Shown: positions 24,001 to 30,000 of the stretch, piece by piece
How positions within the stretch are numbered: position 1 is the stretch's first letter
Layout: each line of letters opens with the position of its first letter
Assembly: GCF_051903065.1 (NCBI RefSeq)
Contig: NZ_CP178439.1
Length of the DNA: 64,000 nt
Origin: Escherichia coli
Lineage (GTDB): Bacteria; Pseudomonadota; Gammaproteobacteria; Enterobacterales; Enterobacteriaceae
Direction: 5' to 3' (one strand)
Position numbers: made by a program

Positions 24001-27000
24001 GTATCCCCGTTGCCCTGATGACGAAGTTACTGAGTATCGACATCTTTTTTCCTTCTGGACGCTCTCAGTCAATAAATCAGGCCAGGCGCTCATTGAAAGC
24101 TACCACGAGCTGCGAATCGGGATTTTTTACCAGTTCGGGCCGGATAACTTTTAGTTGCCTCGTTGGGGCGAGCTCATCTGTAGGCCTGATGGTGGTATTA
24201 CCCGGCCCCTTGCGGGTACTGTCGGTGTTTACCTTGAGCTTTTTATTTCCCAGGTAGCTTTCCATCTTTTTAGAGATGGTGTCACCTGTGGTCGCAACAC
24301 CAGAGAGTTCCTTTAGTTGTTCACCTTGATCCATTTGTACCGATGACATCAGAAATACGATTCCTGGATCGTTTTCCGTTCCACAGGCTCCGTACTGACA
24401 TTGTGCAGCGAAAACGGGCTGTACACCTACAGCAACCAGCATTAACGTACTCAGTAAAGTAGATTTCATACACACCTCTTACAGTCGGAAAAGTTACTTT
24501 TGCGCAGCGCCCATTTGGGTCACCAGGTTTTCCGGGCTCAGCCACCCCGTAAATAACTGCGGTTTGCCGCTTAGTGTCACCATGGTAGGAGTACCTTGCA
24601 GCGGGATTGTTGAGGCCACCTGGAAATGCGATTTGATAATGTTTAAGCAAGCCTCATCAGGACGTCCTTCCGGGATAGTTGAAACCGGATTCATCGCTGC
24701 ATCCAGAGCTTCGTTTGGCTTTGCTGAACACCAGATTTTGGCCATGTTCCCGGCTACTACCGAGTTCAGTCCTGCACGTGGGAATGCAAGAAACTTAATC
24801 GAAATACCGGCATCAAGATAAGACTTCAGATCATGATGCAGTTTTTGGCAGTATCCACAGGTTATATCGGTAAAGATAGCAAGCCGGTATTTTTCGTTTG
24901 GTGATTTGTAGTCGATGGATTTTGTTTTGGATGCGAATTCCCGGACGCCCATTAAAATGGCCTGCTCAGTGGTGTTTACCACATCTTTACCTTTCACGTG
25001 GAATAAGCTTCCGGTAAAAATGTAATCTCCGTCTTTGCTCACGTAACTTACCCCCTCCCTGGAAATCACCGTAAAAATATCTTTTACTGGCGAGGGTTCG
25101 ACGTGCTCGATTGAAAGCCCAATGGCTTTGAGCTTATCCCGGGCTGCATCTGGCAGTACCATTGTATTAACCGGCTCGGCATTCATCGTGAAGGCGGTAC
25201 TTAATGAAAGAAGTAATACCGATGCCTTAATAATTTTTTTCATTTATGCTCCTTGAATCGAGCACTAATATTATCACGCCCAAAAATTCCAGAATTTTGC
25301 TTAAACGCTTAAATCAACGGGTAAAGCCGAAAGAAAGTCGATAGATATATGGGAGAATAGATAAAACGTAGATTCAGTGGAGAAATCGTTGTGTTTACAC
25401 CACCAGCAGATGATGTGAAACCTATTCCCGTTCCTGATGAGATTTACACTCAGTGCATTACGGATGCCGCCCGCTTCTTCGGAATTGATGCCGAACTGGT
25501 TTTTACGTTGTTTGACAATGAAGGCGGTAAGGTTGGTACTTTCAGCAGGAATACTAACGGCACTTATGATATTGGCCCGATGCAGATCAACTCATCCAAT
25601 CTGCCTGAAATAAAAAAGCATTTCCCGACTGTAACGTGGCGGGTTCTGGCTTACGATGCTTGCGCTAGTTTCTGGGTTGGAACATGGTGGCTCTACAGAA
25701 AAATTGTTGATCGCAAGGGCAATGTGTTTGAAGGGATTGCAGATTACAACAGCAAAACCCCAAAGGTACGTGCAAAGTACATATTTAACTTCATGGTAAA
25801 GTACAATCGCCGGATCCAGCAGCGTAACGGGATGGGTGAGCTTTATCAATGGACCCAACAACCTCCTCGATACAATGGCCATATAGCTAAAAATGTCCCG
25901 GAGCAAAACCCGACTCCTGTTGTTAAATAAATTCAACCTGATATTACAGAAGATCATCGAGTAGCTTGGGTACCCCCCCGCAAAAAATTCGCATAGACTC
26001 AGGGGTAATAAATTGTCTTTTTCTGCAAGAAATATATTTAAGATTCTCTCTTCTTTCTTGATGCAGAAAAGCCCTCTTCATGAAGAAGTATGTGTTCCTG
26101 AAGAAACAACAGCTGGTTTATGGGGCCCTCTCCCTGATTCGCATGTCGTGCTTTTCTTAGATTTCGATGGGGTTTGTCACAGGTGCAAAAATGAAACCTT
26201 TGAGCGAATGCCATTGGTGGAAAAATTACTGGATAAATGCCCTTCCATGGTGATTGTCATCTCCAGTTCGTGGCGTGAATGTGCCAGTATAACTTACCTG
26301 AAATCTCTTTTCCGGCTACCTTATAGAGACAAAGTCATAGGTGCTACCGATTCGGTATATTTAAAACCTAATCAGTCAGGTGTGCGGGCTGCTGAGTGTG
26401 AGGACTTTGTATTTTCACATCGAGTTAAAGCATTTATCTGCCTTGATGACGACGAATCATTATTCCCGGTCGGTTATCCACATTTGCAAAAAACCAATTA
26501 TTACACCGGCCTCACCGAATCTGATCTTGCAGCTCTTAACACCAGGTATCATCTGCTTATGAAACGTTGGGCTTCCTGAATTAAAGTAACTTTTACGGAG
26601 AGCATGCCCGCATTATCAGTTCTATGCTTCTCCATTTCTGCCCCGGGTCAAAGCATTGCACAGTTGGAAGAAAACATGCCGGTCTCTTAAGCTTGCTGCT
26701 CAGTTTGGTTCCGGTGCTGAAAAACCTGCCAACGGTGCTTTAGGAATTCAGTATTGATGGGTTTACGCAGCGGCTTAATAAACTCTCCTTGATATGCCGC
26801 TAAATCATGATCTACCGCCAAAGCTTCAGCGAGAATGTTAACCTCCAACGTCACCGGATGAATGGCAATCATGTTTGCGTCGAAAAGATCGTGTATATCA
26901 TGGCGTAAGAGCAACCCATTTGTATAATGGTCTACTCCTCCGTTACGATGCTCCATCAGATGAGCAGCCTCAGTGCGCTGGCGCAGTCTAGAGCCTGTAA

Positions 27001-30000
27001 TCACACATTGGTCATAACAGTTGTTGCGGACGGCTTCTGCAAATGAGGCCTGATCTGGTCGTGTCTCGACAGTTGTCTTACTACCCTTACGCTTACCCGG
27101 TACAGTAGTTTCATCAGGAATATTCGGCTGAAGCTCCTTTTCTTCTATACCATCAGTCTTCATAGCGACCATAATCGCGGCCGGTGGAGATTTAGGCTGA
27201 TCTTCCTGCGATCTTTCGCGGCCACCAACTGGATACCCTAGAAAACCCTCAATGATCTCTAGTGGAGGTAATGTAGCGTTTGAACGTGCATAAATAGCGA
27301 ACTCTGCGGCACGTCCGCCGGGAATATATCTACGTACCAGTATTGGAAGAGAGGCTTCTTCATCTGGTTCCTCTTTTTCCGACAGGATTATTCGTTCGGT
27401 GAGACGGGCTGAATTTTTTTTCATTTCACTCAACAGTCTATTGCGTTCTTTTACCTTTCGGTCATTATCCTCCAACATCTTACGATGACTAACCTTAGCC
27501 AGATGGTCTTCCAGTTCCTGTATATATTCGGGATCGATAGTGTCAATTAGACCGAACGCCATCAACCGCTCCCCCCTTGTTTTACAAGATTCTAGCCGAA
27601 CGCGAATGTACTCCTTACGCTTGGCCATCAAATGTTCTTTTTGTTTTTTTTCTCGAATTACACGGAGCTGAGTATTGTAATTAGAATAAACGGTTTCGCT
27701 ATTCTGCTCTGTCTCTAGAGCAAATTTTTGTAGGTGTTCACGTAGTTTTTTACGGGTATTTTTGGGGGCATGCATTACGGTACGCTCAATGTATGAGCCT
27801 GTGCAGCGTAAAGAAAGTACAGTTTCAGCATGGGAATAACCAGCATTGAGACGATAGCGGGCAATTTTAAGCAAATTATTAAAGTGTGCACCATTACATA
27901 TACCTAGTTCTTCCAAGACACGACGTTCTCTATCATTAATAGATGGATGGTTAATATCTTTTACTTTGTTTGCCATGTCCTGTGTCTCAGTGCCTATTCA
28001 GCCGGAACATCTACTACATAAAGAACGAGATTGTACAGAAATCAGCTAAGTTTATGAATAAAAAAGGCCGCAAATTTATACTTTGCGGCCTTCACTGTTT
28101 AACACCATATTTTAGTAAATACGTTTAATTTTCATTAGGTTATATTTGAAACTCACCTACCTTTTATTTTCATTAAGCCACTGATCCGCTTTATCGACAC
28201 GTGACTGGTAAGGCTCATTTGTGTTGCTCAGCTCTGACTTCATGTACTGAATGAATTCATCTGCTTTCTGAGGCCCAAAGCGTGGGTCATCCGTCAATTG
28301 CTGCCGGATAGCCCTTTCAGAGTTCTGCGCTGCATTCGCATAAGTCGAAACGCCGTCGCTGCTAATACTCTGATACCGGTCACTTACAGCTGCGACGCCA
28401 TCAGACATCTGCATGTGATTAAGGACTTTACCCTGGAGAGAATCAGGCATATTTGCAGGGTTAGAGGCATCATTTGCTATCGATGTCTGGGTTTGAAGGA
28501 TGCCCGCTCCCGTAAGCATCTCATTTACCGGTTTCGCCCCAACGCTGGTTAGCGTATCCGAAACAAATTGCTGGCCCCCGAGTAGCGCACCAGAAATCGC
28601 GCCCCGCTCAGTGTTGGCCTCTATCTTTTCCCCAACCAAGCGATCTGTGACGGTCTGAGTGCGGTTACCAACGAGACCACCGCCCGACCCACCCTCTCCT
28701 AGGTTTGCCCGTACGACTGACTCAAGTGAACCATCAGCTCTGTTATGAGTGTTGAAACTGCTATGGATGCTCTGAACGTCATTCATACTCCAGTTAACGT
28801 TATAGTTACCCAGTTCATTAAGGATCTTCTGGGTATCCGCTTTGAGCTGCTCTCTTTCGGCACCGGTAGCCATGGTGCTGGCACCATAGGTAAAGACAGC
28901 TTGCTGTGCCAATTCAGCTCGCTTATCGTCCCGGCTTAAGTTCGGGTTGTTGGCAACACGACTAAAGTAGTTATCAGTGTTATTAGATAAGCCACGAACT
29001 TGACCGCTCTGATACATACTGTTCAAAGCAGTGGCTCGTTGATCCATTCCATCACCAACCACCCGACCTCCGGTAGCCTTTTCCAGATCGTTAAATGTGC
29101 CTTCTGCATTTCTGACATCCTGACCTGAATTGACGACTTTCTCTACACCCTGATTATTCAGTACAGGGCCATTCGTTTTGAGAGAATTGAGCACATTCCT
29201 TTCTTCATCAGAATAAGTGCGGCCCACGTTGTTGTTATGTATTCCCTGAATATCGCCTTTGCCCGCGTTATCAAGGTTATACGGAGTAAAGCCAGCTTCA
29301 CTTTTTCCAGGGACACGCTGAGTCGCGTCCTGAGCGTTGGAGGAAAGACCGAGTTTAGCCTGCGAATCAACACTTCCACCCAGTTCCCCTACGCGTGACG
29401 CACTCATCACGCCAGACGTATTTACGCTGTCAGGAGTTCTATCCTGTGCCTGAGTGATAGTATTAATTCCTGACCCTTCGCCTGAAATTCTGTCGAGCTG
29501 ATTGGTGATAGGTAGCAGCTGCTGTGCATTACCACCGAAGTCGGAAACCAGACTTTTAAGCAGGCTGGAGGTTTCACGGAGATCCTGTTTATTACTTTCG
29601 GCCGTCTCTCCCCGGGCGGTATCAATCGCAATTTTTTGCTCACTGAAATCTCGTGTTGCAGCCACAAGCGCGTCAGTACGTTGAAGCTGCGAACCAAGCT
29701 GATTACTGGCCTTGAAGGTATCGTTATAGGAGTTGAATTTCTCCATAAACGCATTCTCATCCAGCCCATTCTTACGAGCAAAATTCCTTACATCATCATC
29801 ACTGAAGTTTTTGTTGCGAATAGAATCGGAGAACCTGTCCAGGTTAATGCTTTGTTTAGAATCAAGGCTCATTCCACTATTGGAGCTGGCGTTAGTCGAT
29901 ACCGATGTAGAAATGTTTTGCGCCATCGTCTGTGTCGCCTGGTTCATTTTCGACGATGCTTCTTTAAACGCATTAGTATTGGATATCTGATCGCTGCTTA

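What the first reader, a model, noticed from the sequence alone, without database searches (positions are those of the whole stretch)
26013..27976. HNH endonuclease with an extended N-terminal domain, convergent with a HAD-like hydrolase
A 429-aa protein ends in a clear HNH nuclease signature but has about 300 residues of charged, coiled-coil-like sequence ahead of it. It sits between the transglycosylase/HAD genes and the trhG terminator, with a palindrome copy at 26583. Plasmid-borne HNH nucleases of this size can be defense or exclusion effectors.
Basis: partly seen in the sequence, partly recalled or inferred. Interest (0 to 1): 0.4.

Follow-up and report, generated by a model that had tools for sequence, protein, structure and literature searches.

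The report
Lone HNH nuclease in IncHI2 variable slot
A 429-residue DNA-cutting enzyme with a previously undescribed helical front half occupies a swappable slot next to the transfer genes of IncHI2 resistance plasmids; it is most likely a stand-alone restriction-type weapon against foreign DNA, not part of the transfer machinery.

The parts
26687..27976 (-). Complete gene for the 429-aa HNH_2 protein (stop codon included); RefSeq WP_001284752
   Evidence: ORF list. 100% identical in over 500 PLSDB plasmids and annotated 'HNH endonuclease signature motif containing protein'.
27770..27976 (-). Residues 1-69: small four-helix N-terminal domain. The best-conserved N-terminal stretch, GY..AE..LS...S..YI.R, looks helix-turn-helix-like by pattern only.
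27389..27763 (-). Residues 72-196: two very long helices (72-130 and 149-196) forming a basic, highly charged stalk, the presumed dimerisation and/or DNA-contact element
27239..27349 (-). Residues 210-246: three-helix subdomain carrying the family motif L..LVRRYIPGG...F....R....PL.IIE.FLG (F226 and F245 invariant)
   Evidence: Alignments. AF2 pLDDT 85-95.
27059..27220 (-). Residues 253-306: disordered Pro/Glu/Lys-rich inter-domain linker. The recombination breakpoint with the L012 allele lies here, at window ~27104 (residue ~291).
   Evidence: pLDDT below 50 for 253-306. blastn homology to L012 stops at 27104. dS differs sharply on the two sides.
26690..27058 (-). Residues 307-429: HNH_2 (beta-beta-alpha-metal) nuclease domain with a C-terminal helical extension. 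The Pfam match proper is 26858-27007.
28030..28058 (-). Promoter-like site TTCATA-17-TACAAT, 54 nt upstream of the ATG, immediately downstream of the trhG terminator
   Evidence: Consensus scan. Only 2 such sites were found in 3.2 kb, fewer than in shuffles, so this is suggestive only.
28063..28093 (-). trhG intrinsic terminator (11-bp perfect stem plus a T-run). It is conserved in both IncHI2 lineages and forms the right border of the variable cassette.
   Evidence: dG -20.6 kcal/mol for the 70-nt stretch folded. Conserved in pME-1a.
26597..26633 (.). Imperfect hairpin (GGAGAGCAT...ATGCTTCTCC) in the 107-bp spacer between the convergent HAD and HNH genes. It is the first cassette-specific sequence on the left side.
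   Evidence: Sequence and fold. Homology to pME-1a ends just before it.
26583..26593 (+). One copy of the plasmid-wide AAAGTAACTTT motif, 4 nt after the HAD stop. It lies on the conserved side of the left cassette border.
26013..26579 (+). HAD_SAK_2 phosphatase-like gene. It is IncHI backbone and not part of the nuclease cassette; listed because the finding includes it.
   Evidence: Pfam, 7e-20. Present next to trhG with no HNH gene in IncHI1A and IncHI1B plasmids. DFDGV and DDD motifs are visible in the sequence.

Best explanation
The gene encodes a solitary, methylase-less, restriction-type DNA endonuclease. It is functionally analogous to Type IV (modification- or feature-dependent) restriction enzymes and is carried as lineage-specific cargo in a variable slot at the end of the IncHI2 Tra1 operon.

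Proposed mechanism:
- The basic, all-helical N-terminal module (residues 1-250) selects the target, either a feature of incoming DNA or possibly a foreign protein. Its two long helices probably hold two protomers together.
- The ~55-residue flexible linker lets the C-terminal HNH_2 domains reach DNA at a variable distance and pair up to cut both strands, as in TagI and VcaM4I.
- The outcome would be destruction of phage DNA or of rival plasmid DNA entering the cell. The plasmid's own DNA and the host DNA lack the recognised feature and are spared.

Shown here: the domain layout; an intact catalytic motif; structural kinship of the nuclease domain to Type IV enzymes; the accessory, swappable status of the gene; purifying selection on the N-terminal module; and defence-system neighbours of relatives.

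Inferred: nuclease activity, dimerisation, what is recognised, and the biological target.
For: - **Nuclease domain.** Pfam HNH_2, 1.5e-10. The catalytic H339, N353 and H362 are invariant in 27 relatives.
- **Shared layout with TagI.** TagI has a sensor domain, a disordered linker and an HNH domain that dimerises (PMC6212794). Here the linker 253-306 is predicted disordered.
- **No partner genes.** There is no methyltransferase or immunity ORF in the cassette, which holds a single gene between the HAD stop and the trhG terminator.
- **Tolerated by hosts.** The gene is intact in 509 of 516 near-identical plasmid copies in E. coli, Salmonella, Klebsiella and other hosts.
- **Defence neighbourhoods of relatives.** P0007 lies between a Type I R-M operon and Mokosh MkoC (1693 bits), with a second HNH_2 gene, HipA and Fic nearby. 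P0008 lies beside a different Type I R-M operon and a NERD helicase. P0004 lies between Septu (PtuA 3e-138, PtuB 3e-42) and PifA (2e-238).
- **Two-way modular shuffling, typical of defence proteins.** The same nuclease domain (50-65% identical) is fused to at least 5 unrelated N-termini. P0050 and P0051 share the N-terminal module but have HNH domains only 31-35% identical. The N-terminal part of the IncHI2 allele L012 has been swapped, with pS 0.74 against dS 0.29 in the nuclease part, yet dN/dS is 0.11.
- **Not needed for transfer.** The gene is absent from IncHI1 and from R478, which are typed as conjugative.
- **The slot's other occupant is also a conflict-type nuclease**.
- **The N-terminal module is basic**, pI 9.4.
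Against: - PADLOC gives only a weak generic HNH hit (1.7e-5). No known single-gene defence system matches.
- Guilt by association rests on a handful of loci. Other relatives sit among phage-plasmid replication and nucleotide-metabolism genes or on plasmids without obvious defence neighbours, which is also typical of selfish endonucleases.
- Many relatives have a small translationally coupled upstream ORF that this copy lacks. The family may normally work with a partner.
- No literature or experiment on this protein was found.
Confidence: 0.45

Rival explanations
1. It is a free-standing homing-endonuclease-like selfish gene. The N-terminal helical module binds a specific DNA site near the HAD-trhG junction of plasmids that lack the gene. 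The tethered HNH domain cuts there, and repair from the gene-carrying plasmid copies the gene in. A side effect would be damage to rival co-resident plasmids.
For: - It is an HNH nuclease inserted as a single gene, with its own promoter-like site, in an intergenic gap between conserved backbone genes.
- The gap is empty in IncHI1 and holds unrelated HNH genes in sister lineages, as seen for homing-endonuclease slots in T-even phages (the phage comparison is from general knowledge).
- A nuclease joined by a long flexible linker to a DNA-binding module is the layout of I-TevI-type enzymes (general knowledge).
- Proteins sharing the nuclease domain occur in phage and phage-plasmid genomes among replication and nucleotide-metabolism genes.
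- There is an intragenic recombination tract ending at the domain border.
Against: - No presence/absence polymorphism exists among close relatives: 0 of 959 IncHI2 records have an empty slot.
- The nuclease domain is the HNH_2/TagI type and not the HNH_3, NUMOD or I-HmuI type. There is only one marginal NUMOD-like hit, E=0.22, in 1 of 27 members.
- Chromosomal relatives sit at fixed positions in defence islands and are not scattered through conserved gene sets.
- At 429 aa with a ~125-residue stalk, it is larger than typical free-standing HNH homing enzymes.
Confidence: 0.2
2. It is a toxin or effector. Either it is the toxic half of an addiction or toxin-immunity pair whose partner lies elsewhere on the plasmid, or it is a nuclease exported into recipient or competitor cells, for example through the conjugative type IV secretion system whose genes lie next to it.
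For: - The alternative cassette in the same slot is a polymorphic-toxin-type HNH. It is 43% identical to the tip of an LXG toxin and has a segment shared with a Salmonella protein annotated as an Hcp-family T6SS effector. It is followed by a YrhA/SUKH-like immunity-type gene.
- The gene sits directly after trhG.
- Toxin-antitoxin genes (CcdAB, HipA, YafQ, YafO) are frequent neighbours of relatives.
Against: - There is no immunity ORF in the cassette.
- The polarity is the reverse of polymorphic toxins. Here the C-terminal nuclease is the conserved part and the N-terminus varies.
- No secretion or trafficking domain was detected.
- The gene is maintained intact in hundreds of plasmids in many host species without a linked antidote.
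Confidence: 0.08
3. It is an accessory factor of plasmid transfer, establishment or gene regulation: a DNA-binding protein that processes or marks plasmid DNA during or after conjugation, with expression coupled to the Tra1 operon by read-through.
For: - It lies on the same strand as trhF/trhH/trhG and immediately downstream of them.
- It has a basic helical N-terminal module with an HTH-like pattern.
- A plasmid-wide motif copy lies in the adjacent spacer.
Against: - A strong intrinsic terminator separates it from trhG.
- It is absent from IncHI1 plasmids and from R478-type IncHI2 plasmids, which are typed as conjugative.
- Relatives occur on chromosomes and in phage-like elements with no conjugation genes nearby.
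Confidence: 0.07

Closest known systems
TagI (SRA-HNH) and VcaM4I (EVE-HNH) Type IV modification-dependent restriction endonucleases
   Different: The N-terminal module is all-helical with a long stalk, not a beta-rich SRA or PUA/EVE base-flipping pocket. It has no detectable relative among known reader domains. Sequence similarity to TagI and VcaM4I is undetectable by HMMER. Modification dependence is untested.
Free-standing HNH homing endonucleases of phages (T4 Mob proteins, I-HmuI) and the tethered-domain design of I-TevI
   Same: It is a single nuclease gene with its own promoter-like site in an intergenic gap between conserved genes. A catalytic domain is joined to a putative DNA-binding module by a long flexible linker. 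Alternative endonuclease genes occupy the same slot in sister genomes.
   Different: The HNH subfamily is different (HNH_2, with no NUMOD or IENR modules). No empty-site alleles exist among 959 close relatives. Relatives are embedded in defence islands.
Polymorphic-toxin HNH DNases with SUKH/SMI1-KNR4 immunity proteins (LXG toxins of SP-beta phages, Hcp-fused toxins): the cassette that replaces this gene in R478-type IncHI2 plasmids
   Same: It occupies the same genomic slot. Both are HNH-superfamily nucleases carried as swappable conflict cargo.
   Different: The proteins are unrelated in sequence (best E=1.1) and belong to different Pfam families (PF01844 against PF13391). The window gene has no immunity partner and shows the opposite pattern of modular variation.
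Variable hotspots of SXT/R391 integrative conjugative elements, which share the MOBH/MPF_F transfer system type with IncHI plasmids and carry alternative defence systems between conserved transfer genes
   Same: An intergenic gap next to conserved transfer genes is filled by alternative conflict-type cassettes in otherwise ~91-93% identical backbones. The SXT comparison itself is from general knowledge.
   Different: This is a different element family and a different position. No phage-defence phenotype has been shown for either IncHI2 cassette.

Membership tests
Pfam HNH_2 (PF13391) / His-Me finger nucleases | Profile match above the curated threshold | tested here: met
   41.2 bits against a cut-off of 21, E=1.5e-10, residues 324-373. 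All 27 relatives match.
Pfam HNH_2 (PF13391) / His-Me finger nucleases | Catalytic His, Asn and metal-binding His are conserved | tested here: met
   H339, N353 and H362 are invariant, as are D349 and D366.
Type IV modification-dependent restriction endonucleases of the sensor-linker-HNH type (TagI, VcaM4I, ScoMcrA) | C-terminal HNH domain of the TagI/VcaM4I structural type | tested here: met
Type IV modification-dependent restriction endonucleases of the sensor-linker-HNH type (TagI, VcaM4I, ScoMcrA) | N-terminal modified-base reader domain (SRA, PUA/EVE/ASCH, winged helix, SBD or NEco) | tested here: not met
Type IV modification-dependent restriction endonucleases of the sensor-linker-HNH type (TagI, VcaM4I, ScoMcrA) | Solitary gene with no cognate methyltransferase | tested here: met
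   The cassette holds one gene. The neighbours are the HAD, SLT, DsbC-like and TrhG genes.
Type IV modification-dependent restriction endonucleases of the sensor-linker-HNH type (TagI, VcaM4I, ScoMcrA) | Cleavage requires modified DNA | not testable with these tools
   This needs in vitro digestion of modified against unmodified substrates, or phage and plasmid challenge.
Type II/IIS restriction enzymes with an HNH_2 domain (AlwI, BbrI, HphI) | Adjacent cognate methyltransferase | tested here: not met
   No methyltransferase lies in or next to the cassette.
Free-standing homing endonucleases | Single nuclease gene inserted between conserved genes | tested here: met
   It lies between the HAD stop and the trhG terminator. 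The flanks are conserved in IncHI1 and IncHI2.
Free-standing homing endonucleases | Presence/absence polymorphism among closely related genomes (empty target sites) | tested here: not met
   A joined-flank query found 0 of 959 IncHI2 records with an empty slot. Empty slots occur only in distant IncHI1 plasmids, where the HAD protein is ~65-70% identical.
Free-standing homing endonucleases | Cleaves the cognate site that lacks the gene and is copied into it | not testable with these tools
   This needs cleavage mapping and co-residence crosses.
Polymorphic toxin / toxin-immunity modules | Immunity gene immediately downstream of the toxin gene | tested here: not met
   Downstream of the stop codon is a 107-bp spacer and then the convergent HAD gene.
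Polymorphic toxin / toxin-immunity modules | Conserved N-terminal trafficking domain with a variable C-terminal toxin tip | tested here: not met
   The pattern is the opposite. The C-terminal nuclease is conserved at 50-65% identity across at least 5 unrelated N-termini.
   It is absent from IncHI1A pT28R-1, IncHI1B pLEC-1cb1, R478 and about 415-430 other IncHI2 plasmids.
Known anti-phage defence systems (PADLOC-DB v2.0.0) | Significant match to a model of a named system | tested here: inconclusive
   Only a generic 'HNH' model matches, PDLC04132, E=1.7e-5, over the nuclease domain. The library dates from 2023.

The most novel reading that the evidence does not exclude
The N-terminal helical module is a new kind of sensor that gates a TagI-type HNH nuclease, which would make this protein the founder of an undescribed single-gene defence family. 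In addition, the HAD-trhG gap of IncHI2 plasmids would be a lineage-defining 'weapon slot'. Its two alternative nucleases (this one, or the LXG/Hcp-type HNH toxin plus YrhA in R478-type plasmids) would let the two major IncHI2 lineages attack phages or each other. That could help explain why the mcr-1-associated and mcr-9-associated lineages stay separate.
Probability: 0.15. Interest if true: 0.65.

Novelty: new variant of a known kind. Interest (0 to 1): 0.42.

Why it matters
IncHI2 plasmids are major carriers of colistin (mcr-1, mcr-9), carbapenem and heavy-metal resistance. About half of the sequenced ones carry this uncharacterised nuclease, and the other half carry a different nuclease cassette at the same position. 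If these are active weapons against phages or competing plasmids, they would influence three things: which hosts the plasmids persist in, how the two lineages exclude each other, and how phage- or plasmid-based interventions fare. On the mechanistic side, a confident all-helical module with no known relative, attached to a Type IV-type HNH domain and exchanged by recombination at the linker, would add a new sensor class to the modular restriction/defence repertoire. The claim is directly testable with one gene and one catalytic point mutant.

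Tried and rejected
- **HAD and HNH as a functional pair: rejected.** HAD is present next to trhG without any HNH gene in IncHI1A and IncHI1B plasmids.
- **The two IncHI2 HNH genes as diverged alleles: rejected.** BLASTP best E is 1.1, the Pfam families differ and the strands are opposite.
- **In-place rapid evolution of the N-terminus: rejected in favour of recombination.** Synonymous sites are saturated only upstream of residue ~291, and dN/dS there is 0.11.
- **N-terminal module as a known fold: nothing found.**
  - Foldseek against the PDB, best E about 1.
  - Pfam at E up to 1 on all 27 members.
  - A PDB sequence/profile search returned only a spurious mS26 low-complexity match.
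  - An exhaustive phmmer search of 1.84 billion representatives returned 13 hits, all within its own family.
  - AFDB50 was not available.
- **Sulfur-binding (phosphorothioate) reader: not supported.** The only signal is a 16.5-bit NCBIfam hit over the HNH core, against a cut-off of 180.
- **A conserved small partner ORF:** the ~90-aa upstream ORFs of P0004 and P0005 are 39% identical, but that of P0009 is unrelated, and the window has none.
- **A second paralogue inside the window: none**.
- **Structured RNA in the spacers: none.** The only Rfam match has E 0.98.
- **Literature:** searches for IncHI2 plus HNH, PF13391, IncHI2 plus defence, and the RefSeq accessions found no study of this protein.
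- **My own error:** alignment A3 was built from mis-trimmed coordinates. It was discarded and redone as A4.

Full report
**1. Observation**

The window is part of an IncHI2 conjugative plasmid. Region 25300-28200 is 100% identical to many PLSDB records such as pMCR_WCHEC050613. In total 524 records match at 99% or more.

ORF 26687-27976 (minus strand, ATG start) encodes 429 aa. Its C-terminus matches Pfam HNH_2 (PF13391) at E=1.5e-10, residues 324-373.

The neighbouring genes are:
- a DsbC-like gene at 24494-25243 (minus);
- an SLT/TrbN-like lytic transglycosylase gene at 25391-25930 (plus);
- a HAD_SAK_2 gene at 26013-26579 (plus, 7e-20), convergent with the HNH gene across a 107-bp spacer;
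- trhG (TraG_N) at 28157-32110 (minus).

A perfect 11-bp-stem terminator follows trhG at 28063-28093. A promoter-like site, TTCATA-17-TACAAT, lies at 28058-28030, directly ahead of the HNH gene.

The motif at 26583, AAAGTAACTTT, is one of 11 copies in the window, against roughly 0.03 expected for an 11-mer on both strands (my estimate). Its relaxed form AAGTWACTT occurs 12 times against a shuffle mean of 0.68.

**2. Anatomy of the protein**

An alignment of 27 relatives shows an invariant nuclease core: K295, G298, RPDQ306-309, F312, V316, N319, C320, C324, V325, T327, G328, R334, AAH337-339, G347, D349, NGL353-355, R358, D360, H362, LFD364-366. This includes the H-N-H triad, so the active site looks intact.

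AlphaFold2 (27 sequences, mean pLDDT 78.9) gives the following layout:

| Residues | Predicted structure |
|---|---|
| 15-69 | four short helices |
| 72-130 and 149-196 | two very long helices |
| 210-246 | three-helix unit carrying the family motif LVRRYIPGG...F...PL.IIE.FLG |
| 253-306 | disordered segment, pLDDT below 50 |
| 307-429 | nuclease domain |

A separate model of residues 1-252 reproduces the helical layout at pLDDT 84.8. Residues 1-250 are basic (pI 9.4). The long helices are 42% charged with pI 9.8, and the nuclease domain is acidic (pI 6.1).

The best-conserved N-terminal stretch (GY..AE..LS...S..YI.R, helices 49-57 and 60-69) resembles a helix-turn-helix by pattern only. No profile supports this.

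**3. What the two halves resemble**

The N-terminal module matches nothing:
- Pfam on all 27 members at E up to 1: none.
- PDB by sequence or profile: none.
- Foldseek against the PDB: best E about 1.
- An exhaustive phmmer search of 1.84 billion representatives with residues 1-304: 13 hits, all members or fragments of its own family.

PADLOC gives only a generic HNH model at 1.7e-5. PHROGs hits cover only the C-terminal domain and belong to families of unknown function.

**4. The gene is swappable cargo, not backbone**

- **IncHI1.** In IncHI1A (pT28R-1) and IncHI1B (pLEC-1cb1) the order DsbA...DsbC-SLT-HAD-TrhG is conserved, but the HAD-trhG gap is 246-371 bp with no gene. HAD is therefore backbone, and its convergent arrangement with the HNH gene is incidental.
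- **Sister IncHI2 lineage.** In this lineage (about 415-430 PLSDB records, including pME-1a and the reference plasmid R478) the same gap holds two plus-strand genes: a 353-aa HNH (PF01844) and a YrhA-family protein. The two HNH proteins are unrelated (best BLASTP E=1.1).
- **Borders.** Homology between the lineages runs through the HAD stop and the AAAGTAACTTT motif, breaks at about 26600, and resumes at the trhG terminator at about 28060.
- **Occupancy.** A query made of the two flanks joined together found 959 IncHI2 records, none with the flanks adjacent. The slot is always filled in IncHI2.
- **The R478-type cassette is a toxin-immunity-type module.** Its HNH tip is 43% identical to the C-terminus of a 628-aa SP-beta-family phage protein. 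That protein has an LXG domain (1.5e-57) and is followed by a SUKH/SMI1-KNR4 protein. The YrhA protein has weak similarity to that immunity protein (pairwise E=3e-4). A middle segment of the HNH matches a Salmonella protein annotated as an Hcp-family T6SS effector.
- **Both known occupants of the slot are conflict-type nucleases.** R478 and the IncHI1 plasmids are typed as conjugative without the window gene, so the gene is not needed for transfer.

**5. Family, modularity and selection**

Only 48 proteins match in the 5.8-billion-cluster database. Full-length relatives (30-57% identity) are all from Enterobacterales. The distant hits are Streptomyces HNH_2 proteins that match only the core.

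A 57%-identical allele (P0003) sits in the same slot of a third IncHI2-like backbone (L012). There the flanks and the nuclease-domain DNA are 91-93% identical to the window, but homology stops at 27104, residue ~291, inside the linker. Upstream of that point synonymous sites are saturated (pS 0.74) while dN/dS is 0.11. Downstream, dS is 0.29. The N-terminal module was therefore exchanged by recombination with a distant allele, and it is under purifying selection. It is a working domain and not filler.

Across the family the same nuclease domain (50-65% identical) is joined to at least five N-terminal types with no detectable similarity to one another. Conversely, P0050 and P0051 share this N-terminal module but have HNH domains only 31-35% identical.

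IncHI2 backbones also carry two shorter HNH-signature genes near hipA and an H-NS-family gene. They lie outside this window.

**6. Neighbourhoods of relatives**

| Relative | Source | Neighbourhood |
|---|---|---|
| P0007 | Salmonella, found on many contigs | Between a Type I R-M operon (REase_I 2e-111) and Mokosh MkoC (1693 bits); a second HNH_2 gene, HipA and Fic nearby |
| P0008 | Salmonella | Divergent from a different Type I R-M operon; next to a NERD helicase; in an AlpA/YfjJ-type island |
| P0004 | Enterobacter | CcdAB and Septu (PtuA 3e-138, PtuB 3e-42) upstream; a PifA homologue (2e-238) directly downstream |
| P0005 | Pectobacterium | Integrase/resolvase island |
| P0009 | ~100-kb phage-like element | Terminase and portal genes nearby |
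| P0027 | Serratia plasmid | Between two replication genes |

Proteins that share only the nuclease domain sit in phage-plasmid regions with Dam, RNase H, DHFR and ThyA, or in islands rich in transposases and toxins. The family is therefore mobile-element cargo. For the full-length clade there is a notable, though not exclusive, association with known defence systems.

**7. Interpretation**

The best-supported reading, at about 0.45 confidence, is a solitary restriction-type nuclease that works like a Type IV enzyme. A target-selecting N-terminal module, probably dimeric through its long helices, is tethered by a flexible linker to HNH domains that cut DNA. No methyltransferase or immunity gene is present. 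Self DNA would be spared because it lacks the recognised feature.

The gene is intact in 509 of 516 near-identical plasmid copies across several genera. It is therefore tolerated in ordinary Dam+ Dcm+ hosts, and ordinary Dam or Dcm methylation is unlikely to be the trigger (inference).

Membership in the TagI/VcaM4I family cannot be claimed, because the defining reader domain is absent. The resemblance lies in the nuclease fold and the overall design.

The main rival, at about 0.2, is a homing-endonuclease-like selfish gene. The intergenic single-gene insertion, the tethered design, the alternative endonucleases in one slot and the phage relatives all fit it. The lack of any empty slot among 959 close relatives, the HNH subfamily and the defence-island positions argue against it. 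The two readings overlap in practice, because either would cut rival DNA.

The toxin/effector reading (0.08) and the transfer-accessory reading (0.07) have little support.

**8. Novelty and verdict**

No paper or curated family describes this protein. It is a new architectural variant of a known kind: an HNH_2 restriction-type nuclease with an orphan helical sensor/stalk module. It sits in a lineage-defining variable slot of a clinically important plasmid family.

Interest is moderate (0.42). The anatomy and the evolutionary pattern are clear and the hypothesis is cheap to test. However, function rests on analogy and gene neighbourhood, and solitary HNH nucleases on mobile elements are common.

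Noticed in passing
window 24490, 26583, 33495, 36555, 37040, 41901, 43631, 48533, 53582, 53708, 62147: The 11-mer AAAGTAACTTT (arms AAAGT/ACTTT, usually followed by T) occurs 11 times on both strands, against about 0.03 expected. Eight copies are intergenic or at gene ends. They include pairs in the two long divergent intergenic regions 36478-37183 (upstream of the mobI-like gene, so probably the oriT region) and 53491-54593. One copy overlaps the TAA stop of the DsbC-like gene. It is a candidate binding site for a plasmid-encoded protein.
   Followed up: partly
L002:7395-8972 (pME-1a) and L028:4387-5964 (R478), the position equivalent to window 26600-28060: R478-type IncHI2 plasmids fill the same HAD-trhG slot with a 353-aa HNH (PF01844) plus a YrhA-family protein. 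The HNH tip is 43% identical to the C-terminus of an LXG polymorphic toxin of SP-beta-family phages, which is followed by a SUKH immunity protein. A middle segment matches a Salmonella protein annotated as an Hcp-family T6SS effector. It looks like a toxin-immunity pair with no obvious delivery domain.
   Followed up: partly
L017:2182-2997 and L017:4548-5405 (pEB247, IncHI2; outside the window): IncHI2 backbones of both lineages carry two further short HNH-signature genes (271 and 285 aa; the latter is 44% identical to the window nuclease domain). Each is preceded by a small ORF, and both lie near hipA and an H-NS-family gene. One plasmid can therefore carry three nucleases of this type.
   Followed up: no
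L005:7716-7991, L003:7725-7997, L010:7729-8001, L025:6678-7004: Many relatives have a ~90-108-aa ORF that abuts or overlaps the start of the HNH_2 gene. Those of the Enterobacter and Pectobacterium loci are 39% identical to each other, while others are unrelated. The window copy and the L012 allele have none. This may be a partner, such as an inhibitor or regulator, that the IncHI2 alleles do without.
   Followed up: partly
window 26013-26579: The start of the HAD_SAK_2 gene is ambiguous. RefSeq starts at the ATG at 26061 (172 aa), but that Met is Ile in the L012 allele, and the upstream residues are conserved there and in the 188-aa IncHI1 annotations. This favours the TTG at 26013 (188 aa). 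The HAD motifs (LDFDGV, SSSW, CLDDDE) are intact. The gene is conserved next to SLT across IncHI1, IncHI2 and related plasmids, and its role in conjugation is unknown.
   Followed up: partly
L005:9538-11697 (Enterobacter contig): A near-full-length homologue of F-plasmid PifA (PADLOC 2e-238) lies directly downstream of the HNH_2 relative, with an 86-aa ORF between them and all three on one strand. A Septu pair lies upstream. The HNH_2 gene may be co-transcribed with pifA there.
   Followed up: no
window 27104 (residue ~291 of the HNH protein): A sharp recombination breakpoint lies inside the linker-coding region when the window is compared with the L012 allele. DNA is 91% identical on the nuclease side and essentially unalignable on the N-terminal side as far as the trhG stop.
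   Followed up: yes
window ~25300-28200 in other records (NZ_MH287084; pLH30-mcr1 in PMC5748712): This neighbourhood takes insertions. One record has an IS1 within the 2.9-kb stretch, and a published IncHI2 plasmid has the ISApl1-mcr-1 transposon between the DsbC-like gene and the HNH gene.
   Followed up: no
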